From NCBI GenBank assembly GCA_051382335.1, contig JBBCAX010000383.1, positions 1 to 10,020 of the forward strand: DNA of 10,020 nucleotides, written 5' to 3'. A program made the position numbers and the translations under genes. The DNA is from Deltaproteobacteria bacterium TL4. GTDB taxonomy: Bacteria > SAR324 > NAC60-12. Positions 1-10,020 of this stretch are shown here, piece by piece; positions within the stretch are counted from its first letter, which is position 1, and the number at the start of each line of letters is the position of its first letter. The notes under the pieces are model-generated. The model saw only the letters and a list, made by a program, of their open reading frames with translations. It did not search any database and was not told where the DNA came from.

Positions 1-630
1 ATGTCCCTCTGTGGTGAAGATTGGAAAGGTCAGGCAATTCCTCAAATGCTCCACCCCATCCTCCCGCAAGATCCCCCAGGACATCAAATGCTGACGAATG
101 ACCGGAATTTTACCCTGATAGGTTCGAGGCAAGGTTTTCGGCAAAGAGTGATCGGAGAATCCAATCCGAAAGGTTTGGAGTAACTCAGGATGGGTTAAGC
201 CTCTGCTTTGCAGGTATCGCAAAGCGGGAGGATTATTTTTCAAGGCTCGTTCGTAAAAACTAATCACACCCAAAGCGTCTTTTTCGCTTGCGGGATCAAG
301 GGGATTTGAGGTATTGTTTGTTTCAACAGGTTCTTTCACGGAACTCTGTGTGTGTTGTGGATTTTCACGGACTAAGCTTCCTACGGCTGTTGTGAAATCC
401 ACACCTTCTTTCTTCCTGATGAAGTCGATGAGATCGCCTCCCTGATGACACCCCAAACAATTCCAGACTCCCTTTTGCGGGTTGACTGAAAACGAGGGTG
501 TTTGCTCCTGATGAAAAGGACACAAGCCTTTCCATTCCTTACCTTGCTGCTTTAAGACCACGCCCCGTTTCTGGATTTCCGCGACGATGTCCAAACTTCG
601 CTTAAGCGACTCCATGTCTTGTTTTCCCAT
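1..630 (-). CDS. CHC2 zinc-finger DNA primase-like (DnaG/Toprim-type) protein, 5' part; continues beyond the left edge
   Basis: ATG at 630-628 with RBS GGAAGGAG about 7 nt upstream, open to position 1 (210 codons). Manual translation MGKQDMESLKRSLDIVAEIQKRGVVLKQQGKEWKGLCPFHQEQTPSFSVNPQKGVWNCLGCHQGGDLIDFIRKKEGVDF contains the CHC2 zinc finger CPFH...CxGC. It is followed by ALRYLQSRGLTHPELLQTFRIGFSD...EHLRNCLTFPI, typical of the primase catalytic-core N-terminus. Context (overlapping small ORF, divergent XRE) suggests a mobile-element primase rather than housekeeping dnaG. Confidence 0.9.
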   Translation of the reverse strand, partial: MGKQDMESLKRSLDIVAEIQKRGVVLKQQGKEWKGLCPFHQEQTPSFSVNPQKGVWNCLGCHQGGDLIDFIRKKEGVDFTTAVGSLVRENPQHTQSSVKEPVETNNTSNPLDPASEKDALGVISFYERALKNNPPALRYLQSRGLTHPELLQTFRIGFSDHSLPKTLPRTYQGKIPVIRQHLMSWGILREDGVEHLRNCLTFPIFTTEGH

Positions 631-892
631 GTGTGTTTCTCCTTCCTTGGTTCTCTTGTCTCAATATCTCAAAAATCACATCCCGCAGAAAATTCAAGGT
701 TTCCCGCAATTGCAAAGGATTCACACTGGCTCTGCCAGTCCGATACAGCAGATCTTTCTGCCTTATTTCATCCCCCTCAATGACGAAAGTCACCTGACGT
801 TCCTCATTCATCTGAGGCTGTTTTAAGCAGCCTCCCGAACACAAAAGATAGGCTCCTTTGAAAATATCACTCGTTTCAATCTCTGTTCTCAT
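602..892 (-). CDS. Small hypothetical protein (96 aa), DUF5659-like, probable element accessory or DNA-binding protein
   Basis: Good RBS (GAGGAG) upstream of the ATG at 892. The 3' end overlaps the primase start by 29 nt, suggesting coupling. The pattern ETSDIFKGAYLL...RQVTFVIEG resembles DUF5659 proteins (recognised by eye). Confidence 0.7.
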   Translation of the reverse strand: MRTEIETSDIFKGAYLLCSGGCLKQPQMNEERQVTFVIEGDEIRQKDLLYRTGRASVNPLQLRETLNFLRDVIFEILRQENQGRRNTHGKTRHGVA

Positions 893-931
893 GAGTCTCC
901 TCGTTTATGCGATCATTACTGAATTATTTTT

Positions 932-988
932 ATAGCGTATCAGCTAATTATGTTAACTGCTTTTACGCATAACAATATTATGCTTAAT
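932..988. promoter_or_regulatory. Two tandem palindromic sites 30 bp apart (putative XRE operators or dif-like sites), overlapping a likely leftward promoter
   Basis: ATAGCGTATCA-GCTAA-TTATGTTAACT (932-958) and TTTACGCATAA-CAATA-TTATGCTTAAT (962-988, core GCATAA-N5-TTATGC is perfect). Minus-strand TTGACT (1004-999) lies 16 nt from CATAAT or 18 nt from TAATAT. Confidence 0.55.
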
Positions 989-1032
989 AGCTTTTTAAAG
1001 TCAAACCATATTTTGCTATCAGTCATAATTAT

Positions 1033-1061
1033 TTGACATAAAAAGCACAGCAAGCTATAAT
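1033..1061 (+). promoter_or_regulatory. Sigma70 promoter for the XRE gene
   Basis: Perfect consensus TTGACA (1033-1038), 17-bp spacer, TATAAT (1056-1061), about 70 nt upstream of the XRE ATG. Confidence 0.8.
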
Positions 1062-1133
1062 TATACGAAATAATCAGATACTTAGAACAAAACTAAGCAA
1101 AGTATTAAACGTTTCAATGTAATGGGTAGAATT

Positions 1134-1502
1134 ATGAACATCGCTGAAAAAGTAAAAAAAATCAGAAAAGCTAATAAGTGGTCTCAACAAGAATTGGCGG
1201 AACGTATCGGAGCGCATATCACTCACATTAGCAGAATTGAAACCGATAAATATAAACCTTCTGTGGATTTTCTAAAAAAAATCGCGGATGCTTTTGAGGT
1301 AACTGTTGATTATTTAATTGATGACGTCCAAGAAGAATTTGAGATTAAAGTGGAGGATAAAAGCGTTGCCGAAAGGGTTCGATTAATCGACAGCCTAGAA
1401 GACGCGGATCGAAAAGCTCTTTTACAAATTATTGACACCATGTTAGTCAAAAAGAAAATGAAAACCTTTTTAGAACACGAACTGCAAGCTGTTCCCTCAT
1501 AA
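1134..1502 (+). CDS. XRE/Cro-CI family helix-turn-helix transcriptional regulator
   Basis: MNIAEKVKKIRKANKWSQQELAERIGAHITHISRIETDKYKPSVDFLKKIADAFEVTVDYLI is a canonical HTH_3 pattern, followed by a C-terminal helical extension. Alternative start at 1122. Confidence 0.93.
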   Translation: MNIAEKVKKIRKANKWSQQELAERIGAHITHISRIETDKYKPSVDFLKKIADAFEVTVDYLIDDVQEEFEIKVEDKSVAERVRLIDSLEDADRKALLQIIDTMLVKKKMKTFLEHELQAVPS

Positions 1503-1690: not shown

Positions 1691-1727
1691 TGTTCTTAAA
1701 ACGGACTCGTTTTTAAGAGCAGTTTTT
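1691..1727 (+). terminator. Possible intrinsic terminator or hairpin downstream of the XRE gene
   Basis: TGTTCTTAAAACG-GACT-CGTTTTTAAGAGCA stem (one bulge, one G-U) followed by GTTTTT. The stem is AT-rich, so it is weak. Confidence 0.4.
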
Positions 1728-1794
1728 GAGTGGGTTAAAATATTATCATTGGTTATTATGTGGTTGGAATATTTTTTTTAGAAAGGAAAATCGT

Positions 1795-2574
1795 ATGAAG
1801 AGTTGTTATCAATTGTATGTTTCCTGGGAAATCCAGGTTTGGAAAAGAATTTTTATCCCGTTTGTTATCTTGCTTGCTGTGCTTTTGACCTTCAGCTTTG
1901 TTGGGATTGAGGAAAGCTATGCGATTAGTCCGGAGGAAGTTAATAAAAAGCTAAGAGTATCAGCACGTGATGGAAATGTGAATGAGGTCCTCAAGTGGCT
2001 CAAAGAGGGCGCAGATATCAATTCCAGTGTGAAAAATAATCGAACAGCTTTGATGTCCGCATCTGAAAATGGACACACTGAAGTGGTTAAAATTCTGGTT
2101 GGAGCAGGTGCTGACGTCAATGCCAAAACAACAGCGGTACAGCTAGAATCTGGAATGAAAAGTATGGACAAACCCACCAGTGGTTTTACAGCCTTAATGT
2201 TAGCGGCGAATAAAGGACACACTGAAACGGTTAAAGCTTTGATAGAAGGAGGTGCCGATGTTAACGCTAAAGTGGTTTCTGACACCTTTTTAGGAAATGA
2301 TACCGCTTTGATTAGTGCCGCTAAAAAAGGATATGTTGAAATAGTAAAATTCTTAATTCAAGCAGGAGCTGATGTAAATGCACAACGTAGGGATGGTGAT
2401 TCTGCACTTTATCTTGCTGTAAACCACGAAAAAGCTGAGGTAGTAAAAGTCCTTATTGCGGCAAATGCAAATGTTAACATCAAAGATAATGAAGGTTTCA
2501 CTCCAATACGCATGGCAAAGTATTACAAATATACTGAAATAATAAACCTTCTCGAACAAGCGGGAGCACAGTAG
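1795..2574 (+). CDS. Exported ankyrin-repeat protein (about 6 ANK repeats), candidate immunity or partner protein
   Basis: ATG 1795 follows RBS GAAAGGA and is preferred over TTG 1726. KRIFIPFVILLAVLLTFSFVGIEESYA looks like a signal peptide or membrane anchor. Repeats include TALMSASENGHTEVVKILVGAGADVN, TALMLAANKGHTETVKALIEGGADVN and TALISAAKKGYVEIVKFLIQAGADVN. Confidence 0.92.
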   Translation: MKSCYQLYVSWEIQVWKRIFIPFVILLAVLLTFSFVGIEESYAISPEEVNKKLRVSARDGNVNEVLKWLKEGADINSSVKNNRTALMSASENGHTEVVKILVGAGADVNAKTTAVQLESGMKSMDKPTSGFTALMLAANKGHTETVKALIEGGADVNAKVVSDTFLGNDTALISAAKKGYVEIVKFLIQAGADVNAQRRDGDSALYLAVNHEKAEVVKVLIAANANVNIKDNEGFTPIRMAKYYKYTEIINLLEQAGAQ

Positions 2575-2624
2575 CAAAATCTGTATTACTTGAAGTAATA
2601 AACCCTTAAAACCAAGAGGTAAGA

Positions 2625-5600
2625 ATGGCTTCAGAACTGATTGAAGAATTAAAAGATATTGAAACTACAGAAGAATTTTTGGGAATTATCAATCAAAAAG
2701 GATCTCAGTTGATAACAGAAATTTCTCTTTTTGACCCCATAGAAATCAATGCTCTAGTGACTCACTTCAAAGGGGAAATGGAAGAGGTGTCTCAAACTTT
2801 GGATTTCGTAACCCAATTAGCGACAGGACAATTTCAGAAGCTGGACGAAATCATCAAAAACCCTGAACTTCCTCTTGAATTTATCAATAATCTTTCCGAA
2901 GACGCCATCCAAACTCTCTTGAATTTAGAACCATTAAAAGATTCCCGGTTTGATCAGGCCAAAACCGCTATTCAGGTTATCAATACTTTCATGAACATTG
3001 AAAGCTGGGATGATTTTGAAAACAAGGTGCTTGAAAAAATAAAAACCCGGACTTCTCAGTTTTGGACGGATCTGGAAAGTCTTCCCAACCAGTTAACGCA
3101 GGGCTTTGAAGCTGTTTTGCAAAAGGAATTTCAAAAGCGTGGACTGGGTGAGGTTGGGAGGAAAATAGGACAGGTGATAAACATCATGGACATGCTCACC
3201 GACGTTGAACGTCTTCCAGACCTCATCAATCAGCCGGAAGCCTTTCAAACAGCGATTCAATCTCTTACTCCAGAATATTACATTGAGCTGAAAGACATGG
3301 TGTGGCAACAAGCGGAGCTTAAAATACACCAGGGCGCTGGAAATCAAGTGACTCAAATGCTCCAGGAAGTCAGGGATCATGAGATAAAAAACTGGCCTCC
3401 ATTTTTTCTCAAGCACTCAAGAGTATTTTTAGACACGCGGATACCAGGTCTTGATTTAGACGCTGTTAAAAAAGCATTAACTTTTCCAGTATTGATGGCT
3501 CAAATGCTGGAAAATCCAGGCGAGGCCGGCAGGGAACTTTTAGCCCAGGCCATTCAATATCAGTATGGGATTACTGAAGTATCGGCTGAGACCTTCAAAG
3601 ATGCTAAAAAAACCAGCATTTTGATGGCTGAAGTTTTGCTGCGACAACAGCCACAATTTCAGAAGTTAGGGAACAAAGCTCAAATACTTACAGATATCAT
3701 TGAAAAAGTAATTGATGGAAAACCTGAAGCTCTTGAAGCGGCACAGATAAAAGTAAAAAACCTTTTTGAAGGAGAAATCAAGAATCTCGCTATCAATGAA
3801 GCCGCCAAGTTTGTACCTGGTTTAGCTCCTTTTGTCCCTTTTTTGGAAGCGGTTGAGACAGGCTCTGAACCCAAAGAAATTGTGGTTGGAGTACTGAATA
3901 CCCTGGTTGTTATGTCAGTTAATCCCACTGCGGCGTTATTCTTCTCTCCGGCTATTGGAATCGCGGCAGATAAGATAGACGCCTGGTTTAGTGAGCGATT
4001 TCATTCCATGCAAGCAAGCACACCTATGTTAGAAGCGGTGGTGGAAAAAGCGGATGTAGACGCTATTGTGAGTGATCATACCCAGGAAATTAAAGCGGAG
4101 GATGTTGATGGCCAGGTCAACCCTGATTATGATCAAGTGGAAATTACCTACAAAGGAGATCCGCGAGAAATTTCGGTTCGTAATCCAATAGAAGGAAAGA
4201 TTGTTGGGGTATTTCGTGATCAAAGGGAAATATACATTCAAAGTGTGGTTGATGGCACAGTGCATCACCTTTCAGGATTGGATGAGACTTTTTTTGAGAT
4301 GATGATGCAAGTGTTGGAAAATTTTTGGGAGACAGGAGAAGTCATACCCTCTGGAACAGTTTTGGGACTGGCTTATCTCGATCCCGAATCCGGTCAGGGA
4401 AGTGATCCCACGGAAGCGACGTTCCGGTATGAAATCGAGGCTGGATATATTTTGGGCGGTACTGAGCAGAAACTCCTCAACGCTCAAGAATATTGGCGAG
4501 ATGGTGGACCCCATCTAGTGCCAACGACTTGGGATGACGCGCTAAGCGTTATGTTTGGAGGAAAGCTTCCTGAATCTATCAAAGGTTTTAATCGAGATGA
4601 GAATAAAGATGGCGAAGTGGATGGGAATATCGCCATTACTTTGCGCAAGGGAATTTTAACCCAAATGGTCAACAGTCCTGTCAATGGACAAATCCATGAG
4701 ATCATCAAAGCCCCTCCCGCTCAAGAACCCGCTCTTATTATCAAATCGGAAGATGGCACTTTGCATAAGCTTTCCGGGTTGGATCTGGATTACGCGCATT
4801 TTAAGCAAGGGGATTCTATTCAAGCGGGAAAACCTATTGGCTGGATCGCTTCTATTGACTCACTTTTCGGCACCAATGTTACTCTCCATTATGAAATCCA
4901 GTTAGGGGAAAAGATTGGCGGAAGCGATTACAGGGATGTCACTATAGATCCTTCCGACTATTGGGAAGATGGAGGAAAGATTGAGGCGGCATTAGTCAGA
5001 ATAGACGCAGTTGGGGAACAACTGAATGAAAACGATTTTTCGGGTTTTCAGGTTCAATTGAATGTGGATGTTAGCAGGGAATTAGTCTTAGATATGAAAC
5101 TAACCAATCCAGACACGACCTTTCATACGATAGCTTCCACGCGACTAACAGGAACTTCAACTCTTCAAATAACCATCCCTGCCGCGGAAATCAGTTATGA
5201 ATTTCAAAAACCAGGAGAACACTATGCGCTCAGCGAATCCTTTATGATTGAAATTAAGTCGGATTTGGATTTTTCCAGCGAAGCCTCTCCTGTGTTGGTA
5301 AGCCTGATGGGATCATCGAAAGAGTTTACCCATCGTTTAACTGTAGTCGATACTGATGCCGGGCTTGTTGAACAATCCACCAATCAGTTCAAAGACGCTG
5401 TTCAACAGTTTGGGGATTCATTCACCGTGGATTCCAATTTTCAAATCAATCAGTCAAAACAACACATGAAAGAATTGTTAATAGGGCTAAAAACCATTAA
5501 CAATGATTTAGTTGATGAAATGTCAAAATCCCAACCAAATCCTGATGAAATTTCACGTATGCTGGGTGAGTGGAATGCCTATAAACCTAATCTCAACGCC

Positions 5601-6335
5601 TTTTATCAGATAGCCACCAATCCACAAGTTAGCTCCAACGCTTACTACCGTGGGTATGAAGTGAGCCATCCCCAACAGCTTTTACGCCCTTTGCTCAGTG
5701 CTTCTCAAACCTTAGATCAAATGTTGATCAGAGCCCAAAGTTGTCTGAGAGATGGCAAACCTTTTCCAGTGGATCATACCGTGATTGACACGTTTGATTC
5801 ATTAGAAGACCGCACTGACAACTGGGAAGATTATGTCCAAAATGCTGAAGTTTCTACCCCAGCAGTCCCTAATTCCATCAAGGTTCCAGAATCGGAATCC
5901 CGTTGGCAAATGGTGATGTATCAAATGTTGCGTCCTGAGGCTAAAGGAGATTTACTTCCGGAAATAACTCACTCCTTTCACGCTCCTAATGCCGAGGGCG
6001 AGATGAGAGGAAGCGTTGGAGTTTCTTATGACCACACCCATCAAGGAGAGGCAAATGTTCACGTTCCTTTAGACGGGAGAATTCAGCATGTCACGGAAGG
6101 CTCGGTTTGGATTCTGGCTAATGACGGCACGGTTCATCGTTTTTCCAATCTGTCTTCTATTCCTCAAGATATTCAGGACAAATACGCATTGTATCAACAG
6201 ACCAAAAACGAAATGGATCGCAAAATCAGTCTTGGAGATCAAATCGGAACTTTAGCCAGCGGTGAATCCATCAACTATGAAATTTATGGTCTTGGAGATC
6301 TCGACTTTGAACAATTTGCTCAATATTACTCCTGA
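2625..6335 (+). CDS. N-terminal part of a giant secreted RTX-type protein (helical region, hydrophobic segment, 3 degenerate M23-like repeats, Calx-beta/Ig-like module), truncated by MITE insertion
   Basis: 1236-aa ORF with RBS AAGAGG. M23-like repeats at about 4128-4508, 4620-4976 and 6006-6299. The last 11 codons (LDFEQFAQYYS) and the stop come from the MITE. Confidence 0.85.
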   Translation: MASELIEELKDIETTEEFLGIINQKGSQLITEISLFDPIEINALVTHFKGEMEEVSQTLDFVTQLATGQFQKLDEIIKNPELPLEFINNLSEDAIQTLLNLEPLKDSRFDQAKTAIQVINTFMNIESWDDFENKVLEKIKTRTSQFWTDLESLPNQLTQGFEAVLQKEFQKRGLGEVGRKIGQVINIMDMLTDVERLPDLINQPEAFQTAIQSLTPEYYIELKDMVWQQAELKIHQGAGNQVTQMLQEVRDHEIKNWPPFFLKHSRVFLDTRIPGLDLDAVKKALTFPVLMAQMLENPGEAGRELLAQAIQYQYGITEVSAETFKDAKKTSILMAEVLLRQQPQFQKLGNKAQILTDIIEKVIDGKPEALEAAQIKVKNLFEGEIKNLAINEAAKFVPGLAPFVPFLEAVETGSEPKEIVVGVLNTLVVMSVNPTAALFFSPAIGIAADKIDAWFSERFHSMQASTPMLEAVVEKADVDAIVSDHTQEIKAEDVDGQVNPDYDQVEITYKGDPREISVRNPIEGKIVGVFRDQREIYIQSVVDGTVHHLSGLDETFFEMMMQVLENFWETGEVIPSGTVLGLAYLDPESGQGSDPTEATFRYEIEAGYILGGTEQKLLNAQEYWRDGGPHLVPTTWDDALSVMFGGKLPESIKGFNRDENKDGEVDGNIAITLRKGILTQMVNSPVNGQIHEIIKAPPAQEPALIIKSEDGTLHKLSGLDLDYAHFKQGDSIQAGKPIGWIASIDSLFGTNVTLHYEIQLGEKIGGSDYRDVTIDPSDYWEDGGKIEAALVRIDAVGEQLNENDFSGFQVQLNVDVSRELVLDMKLTNPDTTFHTIASTRLTGTSTLQITIPAAEISYEFQKPGEHYALSESFMIEIKSDLDFSSEASPVLVSLMGSSKEFTHRLTVVDTDAGLVEQSTNQFKDAVQQFGDSFTVDSNFQINQSKQHMKELLIGLKTINNDLVDEMSKSQPNPDEISRMLGEWNAYKPNLNAFYQIATNPQVSSNAYYRGYEVSHPQQLLRPLLSASQTLDQMLIRAQSCLRDGKPFPVDHTVIDTFDSLEDRTDNWEDYVQNAEVSTPAVPNSIKVPESESRWQMVMYQMLRPEAKGDLLPEITHSFHAPNAEGEMRGSVGVSYDHTHQGEANVHVPLDGRIQHVTEGSVWILANDGTVHRFSNLSSIPQDIQDKYALYQQTKNEMDRKISLGDQIGTLASGESINYEIYGLGDLDFEQFAQYYS

Positions 6336-6493
6336 ATAAAATCAGAGACTTATAAAGTCGTATTAGAATTAATGATAGGTTTGGCCTGAAAAACGGGAAA
6401 TAATAACCTTGCATTAATTCATTCATAAAATAAAACCACTGATATTATTGAATAATTAAAACTAAAACCATGAATCAAATGTTCAAAGTCCAG
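6300..6493. mobile_element. 194-bp MITE (non-autonomous IS derivative, possibly IS1634-related) with 6-bp target site duplication GGAGAT
   Basis: Left end CTCGACTTTGAACAATTTGCTCA versus reverse complement of the right end CTGGACTTTGAACATTTGATTCA (13/14 terminal identity, 18/23 ungapped). Flanked by GGAGAT at 6294-6299 and 6494-6499. Interior is AT-rich (about 25% GC over 6336-6469) with no transposase. Confidence 0.88.
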
Positions 6494-9400
6494 GGAGATA
6501 TGACCAAAGATGTTTCCACCTGGAGTCACTTTGACGCGCAGGAATATTGGAACAACGGAGGTATTGGCTTGGAAGTGGTCACTTCCGACGGGTTGCAGGG
6601 GGTTTCTATTGAGGAAGGGGGTCAGGAGCGGCTGACGTTTCGGTTGAAGGTGGCGCATACGGGGGAGCTTAAGTTGAAGCTGAGGTTTAATTATGAGGGG
6701 ACGGCGGAAGAGGATCGGGTATTTGCGTTTTATTATGAAACTTTAGGGGCTGATGGCAGTAGGGTACAGCATTATGAGTCTGAGCTTGAGGTGATTTTTC
6801 CGGCTACTGAGGCGGATGGCTCGGATCAGGGGGGTTCTCTGGAACAGCGGATTTTGGTTTATGTCAAGAGTGATGATGATCGGTCGTTTTTATCGGCTTT
6901 TGAGCAAACGAAGCTGCAATTCGCGCTGATTCAGGCGGGGGCAACGACACCAGATCAGTTTCAGGCTTTGAATTTTGAGCTTGTGTCTCAGGAGACGGAT
7001 GTGTCCATGACTGGACCGGAAATGATGGCGGAAGATCAGGCAAAATGGGGAGCATCTTCGACGGATATTCAGAATTTGTATCGGGAGGCTTCCAACGCTT
7101 ATTATTTGAGCGCATATAGTCAAATCAGCAATCCATTGGATTTGACCTCGGCAACCAATGATCGTCTGAAAGGGTTTGAAAAAGAACAGGAAGCTTATCT
7201 TCTTCAGGAAAAACTGGCCAAGGAAAACTATGTTGTGGGGAATACTTTGAACAACATTATTTTTGCGGGCGATGGGGCTGATATTTTGAAGGGGAATGGA
7301 GGCGATGATCGTCTTTTTGGAGAAAGGGGTGATGATGTTTTGGATGGGGGTGAGGGCAATGATACGCTGATTGGTGGTCTGGGCAACGATTTACAGCGGG
7401 GTGGTCAGGGTGATGATCAGTACATTTATGGAGGTGGACTCGACATCATCCAGGAATTGCAGGGGGAAGGCACGGATCAGGTTCTGATCGACGAGCTTGA
7501 GTTGAGTGAAGTGACGCTGGGAGTTTTTGAGGAGCAACTGCTGGTCAAACTCAATGAGCAAAACCAATTGCTGATCAGTTGCCATGTGGAAACCGTGGTG
7601 TTTAAAGACCGGACGCTTCAGCTTGGCGATGTGCTTCAATATCCTGAAAAATACAACGCGCTTCTTTTAACCAGCGATCCGTCTTTAGAATGGTCTCAAC
7701 GAGAAATAATCGGAACACAGGGTGACGATATCCTTGACGCCTTTGATCCTGGAAATGTTGGCGCGTCTCAGTACACCTCTCAACAGAGCCAAAAAAATAA
7801 CAGCATTTATGGGTTGGGAGGCAATGATATTCTCAAAGGACAGTTTCGGGATGATACCCTGAATGGCGGTCAGGGGGATGATACGCTGTATGGAAATTTT
7901 GGCAACGACACGCTGATCGGCGGTGAAGGTGATGACAAACTGGATGGTGGTTGGGACAACGACGAACTGTCTGGGGAACAAGGCAATGACCAACTGGCGG
8001 GGGGAACTGGACATAACCGGTTCTATTTCAAACCAGGCGACGGCAAGGATACGCTTGAGGTTTTTCAAGGCGGAGGGGCGTTCGCCGCAAGTCATCAACT
8101 GATTTTGGATGAACTGGTTTTTGAGGCGGAGATTGACAAAAACAGCCTGCGTCTCAGTCGGGAGATTGATTCGTTGCAAATTTTTTACAGCGTGGATGAT
8201 TCGGTCATTTTGCGGGATTGGTTTTTACAGGATGACGAACACAGAAATCAACAACTGACCTTTGCCGATGGCAGTCATTGGAACCTTCCCGCACCTGATG
8301 CTATTCTCTTTGGCTCTATGGTTAAGGCGGATCAACTGGTGTTTGCCTCAAGTGAGGTTCATCTGCTTCACGCGATAGAAAACGCCGCTGTGACTCAAGG
8401 CACAGCACAAACCGATCTGATTTATGGACATCAAAAGAGTGAACGTTTGGTTGGCGGTCAGGGAGATGACAAACTCTATGGCCAAGACGGAGATGACCTT
8501 CTGCAAGGCGGGGAAGGCGCTGATTATCTGGTTGGAGGAAAAGGCAAAGACCTGCTTGAAGGGGGACTGGGGCATGACAGCTATCTGATTCAGTTGGATG
8601 AAGGCCATGACAAAATTATTGAGGCGGGTGGAACGGATACTTTGGTCTTTGGAGCGGGGATTGATCCCAAGACCATCATCCTCAAACGCTTTGTGGAGGG
8701 ATTGAAAATAGCGATGCCTTTGGGGGGTAATCAGTACCAAACGGTGCAGGTCCTGGATTGGGAAAACCCTGAACATAAAATTGAACGCTTTAATTTCGCC
8801 AATGGCGTGTCCTGGGATTTGAGCACGATTGAAAGCAAAGCGGGAGATTTTTTTGGTAAGACCTTGGCAGGTACCGCTGGCTCAACCGGCGATCCTTGGG
8901 AATCGTCTTTCGATGGGGCGATGTTTGAACATTCGTTGATCGGGGATTTTGTTAGTATACAAAGCAAGGATGGGTCGTTGGTGTTGCAGAAACGGCAGGA
9001 GTATTTGGCGGATCGAAGGGAAATTTTTAATACCCGAATTGCGTTTAAGTTTGATGGGCATACGCTTGAAATCGGGGCGGATGGGGTGGTTATTCTGGAT
9101 GGTGTTTCAAAGGTCGGGCACGTAGTCCCGACCTACCAAGACCTGGTTGCTATGGAACCAGGGAAAAACGGTCCTGTGTACACCATTACCACGTCTCAGG
9201 GGGATGTGTTGAAAGTGGTCGCTCAGGGAGTTGGGCTGGATTATACCTTTACAGCCTCAGAAAGTCGAGAGCCCGCTTCGTTTGAGGGTTTGAGCGGATC
9301 GCCGGATGGAGACGCGGCCAACGACTGGCTGACGCGGGACGGATCGAAGGTCACCGACTTGCTGGGGTTTGCTCAGGATTGGAAAGTTCGGGCTGAAGAA

Positions 9401-10020
9401 AGCCTCTTGACGTTCTGGAAAGAAGGGATCGAACTGAATTTGAAAAGTTATTTGGTAAGTGTTTTTGAAGAGTTGCGCGGGCAGTTGGAGGAGCTTAGTT
9501 CTCAGTTGACCGTGGACCGTTCACAGTGGGAGTCTTTGGAGGCGGGAAGTGAGACGTCTGAGTTTGGTGCTATTGAGACGCTTGAAAACGCATCACAAAC
9601 AGGTGTGGGGGAAAGTGAGAGTGTCAGGCTTTATCGGGAAACACTGTCCCAGATTGAAACCTTGTTGGAAAAGGTGCTTCAAGGGTTCAGCGGCACTTCG
9701 CTGGCGGAATTGCGACTGCTTCAGGAGGCTTTGACCAGCCTTCAAAACGAGGTTCAGTTCAGTCGGATTGGAGCGAATTGGTATCATCAACAGGTGGATT
9801 GGTTGAATCTTGAAGCGGAGCGTCAAGGGCTGGAATTGACGTGGTATGAGGGACAACTCATTCCTGGCGGAATTGATGTCAGGCCGGAAGATACTCGGGA
9901 TCGGGAGCGGTTGGTCATTGGGAAAGATCAGAACGAATTGACAGGCACAGACGCCGATGAGTTTTTGCTGGGGGATGAGCGGGACAATTTGCTGCAAGGC
10001 GGCAAGGGGCAGGATCGGTT
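6470..10020 (+). CDS. C-terminal part of the giant RTX Ca-binding-repeat protein (Calx-beta-like, RTX nonapeptide clusters, HCBP-related domains, VWD-like domain); runs off the right edge
   Basis: Frame open from ATG 6470 (also 6479, 6500) to the window end, about 1183 codons by manual translation. Many GGxGxDxLx repeats. HCBP-related motifs SVILRDWF...QLTFADGSHWNL and VQVLDW...IERFNFANGVSWDL. VWD-like GDPWESSFDG...GLSGSPDGDAANDW...FAQDWKV. Confidence 0.92.
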   Translation, partial: MNQMFKVQGDMTKDVSTWSHFDAQEYWNNGGIGLEVVTSDGLQGVSIEEGGQERLTFRLKVAHTGELKLKLRFNYEGTAEEDRVFAFYYETLGADGSRVQHYESELEVIFPATEADGSDQGGSLEQRILVYVKSDDDRSFLSAFEQTKLQFALIQAGATTPDQFQALNFELVSQETDVSMTGPEMMAEDQAKWGASSTDIQNLYREASNAYYLSAYSQISNPLDLTSATNDRLKGFEKEQEAYLLQEKLAKENYVVGNTLNNIIFAGDGADILKGNGGDDRLFGERGDDVLDGGEGNDTLIGGLGNDLQRGGQGDDQYIYGGGLDIIQELQGEGTDQVLIDELELSEVTLGVFEEQLLVKLNEQNQLLISCHVETVVFKDRTLQLGDVLQYPEKYNALLLTSDPSLEWSQREIIGTQGDDILDAFDPGNVGASQYTSQQSQKNNSIYGLGGNDILKGQFRDDTLNGGQGDDTLYGNFGNDTLIGGEGDDKLDGGWDNDELSGEQGNDQLAGGTGHNRFYFKPGDGKDTLEVFQGGGAFAASHQLILDELVFEAEIDKNSLRLSREIDSLQIFYSVDDSVILRDWFLQDDEHRNQQLTFADGSHWNLPAPDAILFGSMVKADQLVFASSEVHLLHAIENAAVTQGTAQTDLIYGHQKSERLVGGQGDDKLYGQDGDDLLQGGEGADYLVGGKGKDLLEGGLGHDSYLIQLDEGHDKIIEAGGTDTLVFGAGIDPKTIILKRFVEGLKIAMPLGGNQYQTVQVLDWENPEHKIERFNFANGVSWDLSTIESKAGDFFGKTLAGTAGSTGDPWESSFDGAMFEHSLIGDFVSIQSKDGSLVLQKRQEYLADRREIFNTRIAFKFDGHTLEIGADGVVILDGVSKVGHVVPTYQDLVAMEPGKNGPVYTITTSQGDVLKVVAQGVGLDYTFTASESREPASFEGLSGSPDGDAANDWLTRDGSKVTDLLGFAQDWKVRAEESLLTFWKEGIELNLKSYLVSVFEELRGQLEELSSQLTVDRSQWESLEAGSETSEFGAIETLENASQTGVGESESVRLYRETLSQIETLLEKVLQGFSGTSLAELRLLQEALTSLQNEVQFSRIGANWYHQQVDWLNLEAERQGLELTWYEGQLIPGGIDVRPEDTRDRERLVIGKDQNELTGTDADEFLLGDERDNLLQGGKGQDR
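7238..7430 (+). repeat. RTX nonapeptide cluster 1
   Basis: AGDGADILK GNGGDDRLF GERGDDVLD GGEGNDTLI GGLGNDLQR GGQGDDQYI. Confidence 0.9.
7712..8030 (+). repeat. RTX nonapeptide cluster 2
   Basis: GLGGNDILK GQFRDDTLN GGQGDDTLY GNFGNDTLI GGEGDDKLD GGWDNDELS GEQGNDQLA GGTGHNRFY. Confidence 0.9.
8399..8590 (+). repeat. RTX nonapeptide cluster 3
   Basis: GGQGDDKLY GQDGDDLLQ GGEGADYLV GGKGKDLLE GGLGHDSYL. Confidence 0.9.
9111..9136 (-). repeat. GTAG-type REP-like palindrome inside the coding sequence
   Basis: Minus strand reads GTAG-GTCGGG-ACTACGTG-CCCGAC-CT, with a perfect 8-bp stem AGGTCGGG/CCCGACCT and an 8-nt loop. Confidence 0.5.
9944..10020 (+). repeat. Start of RTX nonapeptide cluster 4 (truncated by window)
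   Basis: GTDADEFLL GDERDNLLQ GGKGQDR. Confidence 0.8.

What the first reader, a model, noticed from the sequence alone, without database searches (positions are those of the whole stretch)
6294..6499. Hidden 194-bp MITE splits one giant RTX gene; precise excision restores frame and exact repeat spacing
Seen: terminal inverted repeats CT(C/G)GACTTTGAACA at 6300 and 6493, flanked by duplicated GGAGAT (Gly-Asp), in frame with the upstream ORF at 6294 and the downstream ORF at 6494. Deleting 200 bp fuses them into YEIYGLGD-MTKDVSTWSHFDAQEYWNNGG. This puts the (D/E)YW motif exactly 22 residues after the Y of YEI, as in intact repeat 2 (YEIQLGEKIGGSDYRDVTIDPSDYW). Two apparent genes and an intergenic gap are therefore one gene of at least 2398 aa. 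Inference: C-starting ends and a 6-bp duplication fit an IS1634-family derivative. It may be a simple knockout or a reversible on/off switch by precise excision, as known for IS492 in eps and IS256 in ica.
Basis: partly seen in the sequence, partly recalled or inferred. Interest (0 to 1): 0.85.

Follow-up and report, generated by a model that had tools for sequence, protein, structure and literature searches.

The report
Mini-transposon knocks out giant RTX gene
A 194-base jumping DNA element, present about 50 times in this genome, sits inside and splits one gene of a family of giant, likely secreted proteins; this is most likely an ordinary knockout rather than an on/off switch, although the element keeps two predicted binding sites for a DNA-bending host protein across three genera.

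Summary
Observation confirmed. 6300-6493 is a MITE: 47 left and 51 right ends in the genome, 20 of 25 near-full copies identical, 37 different 6-8-bp target duplications. The flanks are one gene: 6 of 6 paralogs that span the site do so in one frame with the same spacing. The family call is wrong: the shared 17-bp ends belong to an IS701-family element (NCBIfam NF049999 over cut-off; IS1634 14 bits against 100), with duplications longer than the canonical 4 bp. The switch idea has no support: frame restoration follows from any duplicated target, only the filled allele is assembled, this is one of 6 gene hits among 36 sites, and 6 of 9 family members are broken by different repeats. New here: a 194-bp relative in two other genera (56-70% identical, no net indel) keeps IHF-consensus sites 41 and 50 bp from the ends, as if folded by IHF like the IS10 end. 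The host gene family (ankyrin or beta-propeller gene, variable helical N-terminus, degenerate LytM repeats, conserved RTX part) was found only in this genome. The scan had not noted this element on other DNA; it noted two other MITEs in this genome.

The parts
6300..6493 (.). 194-bp MITE (non-autonomous element), about 50 copies in the genome
6300..6316 (+). left terminal inverted repeat, 17 bp
   Evidence: I15
6477..6493 (-). right terminal inverted repeat, identical for 17 bp to both ends of the IS701-family element of this genome
6294..6299 (+). target-site duplication, left copy (6 bp)
6494..6499 (+). target-site duplication, right copy (6 bp)
6340..6352 (+). predicted IHF site, perfect consensus, 41 bp from the left end; same position in G015 and G007
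6432..6444 (-). predicted IHF site, one mismatch here, perfect in G007 and 9 of 10 full-length G015 copies; 50 bp from the right end
6470..6472 (+). outward-reading ATG inside the MITE that opens the apparent second ORF; not kept in G015 or G007
2625..6299 (+). 5' part of the interrupted gene (1225 codons): variable helical N-terminal region and three LytM/M23-like repeats; reading stops at 6333-6335 inside the MITE
4077..4460 (+). LytM/M23-like repeat 1
4524..4910 (+). LytM/M23-like repeat 2
5877..6550 (+). LytM/M23-like repeat 3, cut near its end by the MITE
6500..10020 (+). 3' part of the interrupted gene (at least 1173 codons), family-conserved region with RTX calcium-binding repeats; runs off the contig
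7341..8535 (+). RTX nonapeptide repeat clusters (54-bp spaced DNA repeats)
   Evidence: D2; PF00353, PF06594
1726..2574 (+). ankyrin-repeat gene directly upstream; 7 of 7 family members with upstream DNA have an ankyrin or beta-propeller gene here

Best explanation
A 194-bp MITE with about 50 near-identical copies sits inside one member of a family of giant RTX-repeat genes and splits it; it was likely moved there in trans by an IS701-family transposase that has the same 17-bp ends, likely with help from host IHF bound at two subterminal sites, and the result is most likely a plain knockout of a dispensable paralog. Shown: the element, its copies, its 6-8-bp duplications, the shared ends, the family of the transposase, the single-gene origin, the conserved IHF-consensus sites. 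Inferred: the transposase binds the two ends, cuts the element out and inserts it with a 6-8-bp staggered cut at AT-rich DNA; IHF bends each arm so that two ends only 194 bp apart can pair; the truncated 1236-aa product has lost the C-terminal part that type I secretion would need; copies in needed genes were purged, while this one persists because the family is redundant and is decaying in a genome-wide burst of insertion sequences. Reversion would be the rare, transposase-independent slippage open to any such insertion, not a programmed switch.
For: Copies and duplications: (37 sites, 12 of 6 bp, 21 of 7 bp, 4 of 8 bp, all different; 21% GC in the 21 intact-copy duplications). Partner: 7 left and 6 right ends of a larger element with the same 17 bp, one pair sharing an 8-bp duplication; its 144-aa remnant best matches NF049999; a 69%-identical relative in G015 scores 231.8 bits against cut-off 170, IS1634 14.4 against 100; G009 holds a whole element with a 7-bp duplication and its own MITE with an 8-bp one. 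One gene: 6 of 6 paralogs spanning the site. Knockout pattern: 6 of 36 sites lie in long open frames against 1115 and 1039 of 2000 control positions; 6 of 9 family members are cut by multi-copy DNA, 4 of the 5 others by elements with a copy next to a PF01609 transposase; 565 of 890 contig ends are multi-copy. IHF: sites at +41 and -50 in three genera, variation falling on the free positions; 8 to 16 of 2000 shuffles give such a pair; IS10 has an IHF site reaching bp +42 that aids end pairing (PMC3159471). A type I HlyD gene passes its cut-off.
Against: The middle of the partner element is not assembled in G000, so no intact transposase gene was seen there, and G007 gave only one weak fragment. 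The 6-8-bp duplication does not fit the 4 bp given for IS701 (PMC2266710). The host's four HU/IHF-family genes stay under the curated IHF cut-offs. The autonomous ends in G000 and G009 have no inward site within one mismatch at +41 or +50; only one G015 end has. Three lineages are few and share descent. Other short elements with the same ends are 149, 158, 201 and 246 bp and lack the two positions. The count of broken paralogs is inflated by assembly breaks at repeats, and 3 of 9 members end in collapsed repeats, so their state is unknown. This target (50% GC) is less AT-rich than most. The C-terminus of the gene is off the contig, so its secretion signal was not seen.
Confidence: 0.8

Rival explanations
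1. Reversible on/off switch: the MITE inserts into and excises precisely from this gene often enough to give phase variation of a surface or secreted protein.
For: Precise excision drives phase variation for IS492 in epsG and IS256 in icaC, and 4 of 7 IS insertions in Xanthomonas LPS genes reverted, at 0.01-5% for reverting types (10.1101/2023.04.27.538605, passages). The element is short and folds as a hairpin (z -3.7), which brings the two duplications together. The target is a likely surface or secreted protein.
Against: Frame restoration is automatic for any duplicated target. No hotspot: 37 different sites, no other paralog carries this MITE at the matching place. Only the filled allele is assembled. 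Sister genes are broken by unrelated elements. The partner is a DDE transposase related to the IS4 family, not an IS110 recombinase like IS492's (family traits recalled, and PMC2266710).
Confidence: 0.07
2. Gene fission: the insertion leaves two working genes, the MITE lending an in-frame ATG (6470) to the RTX half, so the conserved C-terminal part is still made and exported without the variable N-terminal part.
For: The ATG is in frame with the 3' part; the cut lies about 20 codons before the block where paralog identity rises from 22-60% to 78-100%; 4 of 49 right ends are open for 80 codons in the ATG frame, against 1 and 2 in the other frames. MITE-ORF fusions are known (PMC3184786).
Against: One frame in three fits by chance and 4 against 1 and 2 is not a clear excess; no promoter-like site in 6200-6600; no Shine-Dalgarno-like run before 6470; the ATG is not kept in G015 or G007; the cut falls inside a LytM-like repeat, not between domains; the element is young (20 identical copies), so there has been little time for selection.
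Confidence: 0.1
3. Assembly artefact or two natural genes with a chance intergenic palindrome.
For: The assembly is fragmented (445 contigs) and often breaks at this element (49 partial hits).
Against: The contig runs through the element with unique flanks and a site-specific duplication; paralogs are continuous across the site.
Confidence: 0.03

Closest known systems
Prokaryotic MITEs moved in trans by a cognate IS (Nezha with ISNpu3, Chunjie, Correia; PMC3184786 and PMC10969869, passages)
   Same: Under about 200 bp, AT-rich, terminal inverted repeats shared with an autonomous IS, target duplications, hairpin fold, mostly intergenic, occasional gene knockouts (mcy, avrA, hopX1, pyrE are named there).
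   Different: Partner is an IS701-family element; duplication varies 6-8 bp; two inward-facing IHF-consensus sites at fixed distances and a fixed length kept across three genera. Correia has one shown IHF site, described there as acting on transcription.
IS701 family (PMC2266710, passages; NCBIfam NF049999)
   Same: Transposase passes NF049999; size about 1450-1480 bp; YREK motif incomplete (no K in any of 41 loci); ends carry the ACT-Y core of the family consensus.
   Different: Duplication is 6-8 bp here and 5 bp in 17, 7 bp in 2 of 34 related loci examined, not 4 bp; two pyrimidine positions of the end consensus are not met.
IS10 outside end (IS4 family; PMC3159471, passages)
   Same: An IHF consensus site next to the terminal repeat (to bp +42), whose bend aids pairing of the ends.
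   Different: IS10 has the site at one end only and is 1.3 kb; here both ends of a 194-bp non-autonomous element carry one, at +41 to +53 and +50 to +62; binding not tested.
IS492 in epsG and IS256 in icaC (seen as summarised in 10.1101/2023.04.27.538605)
   Same: A mobile element interrupting a gene for a likely surface trait.
   Different: Those show repeated insertion in one gene and measured reversion; here one site among dozens, another transposase family, no reversion data.
MITE knockouts of mcy genes in Anabaena (as summarised in PMC3184786 and PMC10969869)
   Same: A MITE inactivating a very large accessory gene in a natural isolate.
   Different: Target here is one paralog of a genome-specific RTX family already hit by several other elements.

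Membership tests
MITE | short, no transposase gene | tested here: met
   194 bp, no ORF of its own beyond 11 and 8 run-through codons
MITE | terminal inverted repeats and target-site duplication | tested here: met
   17-bp arms; 21 of 24 intact copies with 6-8-bp duplication, control 1 of 552
MITE | many dispersed copies | tested here: met
   47 left and 51 right ends
MITE | ends shared with an autonomous IS in the same genome | tested here: met
   17 bp identical to 7 left and 6 right IS ends
MITE | mobilisation in trans shown | not testable with these tools
   needs a transposition assay
IS701 family (partner element) | transposase profile | tested here: met
   NF049999 231.8 bits, cut-off 170, for the G015 relative; G000 remnant 65.8 bits over 144 aa, same best family
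IS701 family (partner element) | incomplete YREK motif | tested here: met
   R in place of K, F or Y at the first position, in nearly all of 41 loci; K in none
IS701 family (partner element) | size 1400-1550 bp | tested here: met
   1479 bp in L062; 1444-1575 in related loci; not measurable in G000
IS701 family (partner element) | 4-bp target duplication | tested here: not met
   6-8 bp in G000, G009, G015; 5 or 7 bp in distant relatives. So: IS701-like transposase, atypical clade
IS701 family (partner element) | end consensus ---YACT-Y--YR | tested here: inconclusive
   ACT-Y core met; positions 4, 12 and 13 not met
IS1634 family | transposase profile | tested here: not met
   NF033559 14.4 bits, cut-off 100
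IS1634 family | 5-6-bp duplication, 1500-2000 bp | tested here: not met
   25 of 37 sites have 7-8 bp; partner about 1480 bp
IS4 family, ISPepr1 subgroup | 7-8-bp duplication, CT ends, AT-rich targets | tested here: met
IS4 family, ISPepr1 subgroup | complete YREK motif and IS4 profile | tested here: not met
   no K; IS4 models 45 and 42 bits against cut-offs 115 and 250
Phase-variable IS switch (IS492-eps, IS256-ica) | repeated insertion at one site or gene | tested here: not met
   37 different sites, one in this family; other strains of the species not available
Phase-variable IS switch (IS492-eps, IS256-ica) | empty and filled alleles coexist, high-rate precise excision | not testable with these tools
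   only the filled allele is in the assembly; needs reads or PCR
RTX cytolysin (HlyA-like) | whole-protein family score | tested here: not met
   NF033943 161.8 bits against cut-off 1000, from the repeats only
RTX-repeat type I secretion substrate | GG-rich calcium-binding nonapeptides and a type I system in the genome | tested here: met
   PF00353 118.8 bits; TIGR01843 over cut-off on C228
RTX-repeat type I secretion substrate | C-terminal secretion signal | not testable with these tools
   gene runs off the contig
Active M23 peptidase | LytM fold | tested here: inconclusive
   Foldseek ranks LytM/M23 domains at the top (prob 1.0) but best E 0.007; PF01551 19.4 bits under cut-off 28.7
Active M23 peptidase | HxxxD and HxH zinc motifs (recalled) | tested here: not met
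   absent or partial in the window's three repeats by inspection of alignment A1

The most novel reading that the evidence does not exclude
This MITE is not a passive deletion remnant but a length-locked, host-folded transposition substrate: IHF bound at two fixed subterminal sites bends both arms so that an IS701-type transposase can pair ends only 194 bp apart, and selection on that geometry has held the length and the two sites constant across three genera while the rest drifted to 56-70% identity. This would explain how such a short element out-multiplies its autonomous partner (about 50 copies against about 7).
Probability: 0.45. Interest if true: 0.5.

Novelty: new member of a known kind. 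Interest (0 to 1): 0.3.

Why it matters
As a gene knockout it is ordinary: it corrects an annotation (one broken gene, not two) and adds a MITE-IS701 pair with an unusual 6-8-bp duplication. The part worth a specialist's time is the element's build. Very short DNA resists the bending needed to pair two ends, and how MITEs get round this is rarely addressed; a 194-bp element with two IHF-consensus sites at fixed distances in three genera makes that directly testable with a few base changes and spacer lengths. Second, the broken gene belongs to a genome-specific family that looks like a polymorphic type I-secreted system with an upstream partner gene, which deserves its own look.

Tried and rejected
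Reads for the uninterrupted allele: no sequencing run was listed, so this stayed untested. Orthologs of the host gene: not found in 30 relatives with a 165-aa query, in 87 other genomes of the class with a profile, in genome contigs, among longer proteins (weak evidence); one 29% hit in metagenomes; of 13 hits among 1.84 billion representatives the best 7 match this genome's own paralogs by length and identity (my inference) and 6 are weak. So the single-gene test rests on paralogs. IS1634 and IS4-ISPepr1 as partner: rejected. MITE as an internal deletion of the resident IS: rejected, they share only the terminal 17 bp. Outward promoter or terminator: 0 found. Known RNA family: 0 matches. The element in phages: 7 loose pattern matches, none with a duplication or similarity, judged chance; in plasmids: no match. 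N-terminal region: model of pLDDT 58.6, all helical, no fold match; Atlas scores 0.76 at most. A named ISfinder match was not found: the end alignments in the supplement of PMC2266710 are not held as text, and the ISAba11 passages gave no end sequence. A citable excision rate for IS4/IS701-type elements was not found; that such rates are low is recalled. Searches for a MITE with paired IHF sites and for an ankyrin-paired RTX polymorphic family showed no matching title or abstract; this is not proof of absence from print.
Full report
1. The observation. The window is the whole of contig C383 of genome G000 (6.6 Mb, 445 contigs). Inverted arms of 17 bp lie at 6300-6316 and 6477-6493 and the same hexamer flanks them on both sides. 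ORF 2625-6335 ends at a stop inside the element; a second ORF opens at an ATG inside the element (6470) and runs off the contig. There are 1225 codons before and 1173 after the element, in one frame.

2. It is a young, abundant MITE. BLAST finds 74 pieces in G000; 25 are near full length, 20 of them identical. Counting ends gives 47 left and 51 right; 21 of 24 intact copies have a target duplication, against 1 of 552 mismatched flank pairs. Adding 16 left-right pairs matched across contig breaks by their duplication gives 37 sites, all different: 12 of 6 bp, 21 of 7 bp, 4 of 8 bp. Duplications are AT-rich (21% GC in the intact copies, genome 43%). Only 6 of 36 scorable sites lie inside a frame open for 80 codons on both sides, against 1115 and 1039 of 2000 control positions. 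The other interrupted frames look like an RCC1-type repeat protein, a binding protein, a sensor kinase, a PEP-utilising enzyme and a peptide synthetase (read by eye, not scanned).

3. The partner is IS701-like, not IS1634. A search for the terminal motif found two further end types at contig ends: one leads into a start codon and a transposase N-terminus, the other out of a transposase C-terminus. There are 7 left and 6 right ends, and one pair shares an 8-bp duplication. The middle is not assembled, apart from an internally deleted 144-aa piece whose best family is NF049999, IS701 family. Relatives occur in 3 of 60 related genomes. The G015 protein scores 231.8 bits on NF049999 (cut-off 170) and 14.4 on IS1634 (cut-off 100). 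G009 holds a whole element with nearly the same ends and a 7-bp duplication, with its own 158-bp MITE and an 8-bp duplication inside it. Among 41 related loci from other taxa I examined the ends of 34: most have CT(C/G)GACTTT-type ends, 17 with a 5-bp and 2 with a 7-bp duplication, the rest none or unclear. The YREK lysine is absent from all 41 loci scored. De Palmenaer 2008 (PMC2266710; passages and a supplement search) gives 4 bp for IS701, 5-6 for IS1634 and 7-8 for ISPepr1. So the transposase files under IS701 while the duplication does not: an atypical clade. The MITE shares only the terminal 17 bp with the resident IS, so it is a parasite of it, not a deletion of it.

4. One gene. No ortholog was found elsewhere, but G000 has paralogs.

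5. The host gene. Members have a variable, helical N-terminal region (13-51% identity), two or three repeats with a LytM/M23-like fold (Foldseek top ranks, best E 0.007) whose zinc motifs are degenerate (motifs recalled), and a C-terminal part 71-89% identical between members with RTX nonapeptides. It is not an HlyA-type cytolysin by family score. A type I HlyD gene is present. In 7 of 7 members with upstream DNA the neighbour is an ankyrin (3) or beta-propeller (4) gene. I read this as a likely secreted, cell-wall-binding polymorphic family; its function is untested. Of 9 members, 6 are cut by multi-copy DNA: this one by the MITE, C98 twice, C194, C245, C280, C360; for four of these five a copy of the element lies within 500 bp of a PF01609 transposase hit. 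The other three end in collapsed repeats and cannot be judged. 565 of 890 contig ends are multi-copy. The family is thus being hit by whatever moves in this genome.

6. Switch? Getting the old frame back on loss of an element and one duplication copy is a property of every such insertion. A switch needs a hotspot and coexisting alleles. There is no hotspot, no paralog has this MITE at the matching place, and each 30-bp flank occurs once in the assembly, next to the element. Reversion of IS insertions does occur in nature (10.1101/2023.04.27.538605; passages) and the hairpin fold (z -3.7) could aid slippage, so it is not excluded; I give it 0.07. Fission into two working genes gets 0.10: the MITE's ATG is in frame and the cut is about 20 codons before the conserved block, but the ATG is not conserved, no promoter-like site was found and the frame excess is 4 against 1 and 2 of 49.

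7. What was not expected: the element's interior. The MITE matched 1 of 60 related genomes by BLAST (G015), and an end-to-end pattern found elements in 3 of 87 (G015 10, G007 2, G009 1). G015 and G007 copies are 194 bp (one 193), 70% and 56% identical to ours without gaps, mostly with 6-8-bp duplications. Outside the terminal repeats, conservation peaks at positions 36-53 and 133-152 (15-16 of 18 and 16 of 20 in every pair) against 30-47 of 79 in the core. These blocks hold the IHF consensus WATCARNNNNTTR (PMC9820253; passages), facing inward 41 bp from the left end and 50 bp from the right. Over 13 full-length copies (1 G000, 10 G015, 2 G007) the left site varies only at R and N positions; the right site also varies at its last two positions in two sequences. 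Shuffling the core gives such a pair in 9, 16 and 8 of 2000 trials. In IS10 an IHF site reaching bp +42 folds the end and aids pairing (PMC3159471; passages). Limits: three related lineages; no binding test; host HU/IHF genes under the curated IHF cut-offs; the autonomous ends mostly lack the sites; other short elements with these ends have other lengths and no such sites.

8. Against what is known. MITEs that share ends with an IS, sit mostly between genes, sometimes knock genes out and sometimes carry an IHF site are described in PMC3184786 and PMC10969869 (passages). This is a new member of that kind. I saw no title or abstract on a MITE with paired, position-locked IHF sites and the scan's own notes hold no look-alike; two notes describe other MITEs in this genome, not checked here. 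PMC7145654 and PMC9771954 (passages) added nothing. Figures and image supplements of PMC2266710, which hold the end alignments, could not be seen and bear on the subgroup name.

9. Verdict. Observation confirmed; interpretation partly supported; best explanation a knockout by an IS701-driven MITE (0.8); interest 0.3.

Noticed in passing
window 1726-10020; G000 C116, C194, C245, C268, C280, C297, C360, C98, C445, C66: A family of at least 9 giant genes found only in this genome: upstream ankyrin or PQQ-type beta-propeller gene, variable helical N-terminus, 2-3 degenerate LytM repeats, then a C-terminal RTX part about 90% identical in DNA. Looks like a polymorphic type I-secreted system with a cognate partner gene in front of the variable end; the constant part may be homogenised by recombination.
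   Followed up: partly
G000 C101:3477, C136:1123, C337:302, C385, C221: Another insertion sequence sits in this MITE at the same base (after position 119) in three copies with different outer flanks, so the MITE's central AT palindrome is a preferred target; a second element enters at three other positions (C310, C86, C80).
   Followed up: no
L060:753-2397 (G009) and G000 C171, C87: MITEs and further IS ends have inserted into the 5' region of the autonomous partner itself, in G009 right at its start codon, which may silence it.
   Followed up: no
G009 C2, C3, C7, C30; G006 C1; G015 C29:793733, C30:1249979: Several unrelated short elements (149, 158, 201, 246, 464, 470 bp) use the same terminal repeat; the longer ones may be nested.
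   Followed up: partly
G000 C33:6337-6530 and C54:34731-34924: The MITE's outward ATG is in frame with a long downstream ORF; at C33 the insertion is near the start of a 1200-codon gene and could supply its start.
   Followed up: partly
window 1-1502: A CHC2 zinc-finger primase gene and a 96-aa ORF on the minus strand, facing away from an HTH_3 regulator; the contig start is a three-copy repeat. C245 has a similar HTH gene upstream of its family member, so the family may ride on a mobile module.
   Followed up: no
window 938-950 and 1072-1084: Two more perfect IHF-consensus sites in the divergent intergenic region upstream of the HTH gene.
   Followed up: no
G000 C62:31428-31469: A 42-bp palindrome made of two terminal-repeat-like arms with no duplication found.
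   Followed up: no
G000 C90:49850-62959: An unrelated very large RTX-repeat gene, over 13 kb of repeats.
   Followed up: no
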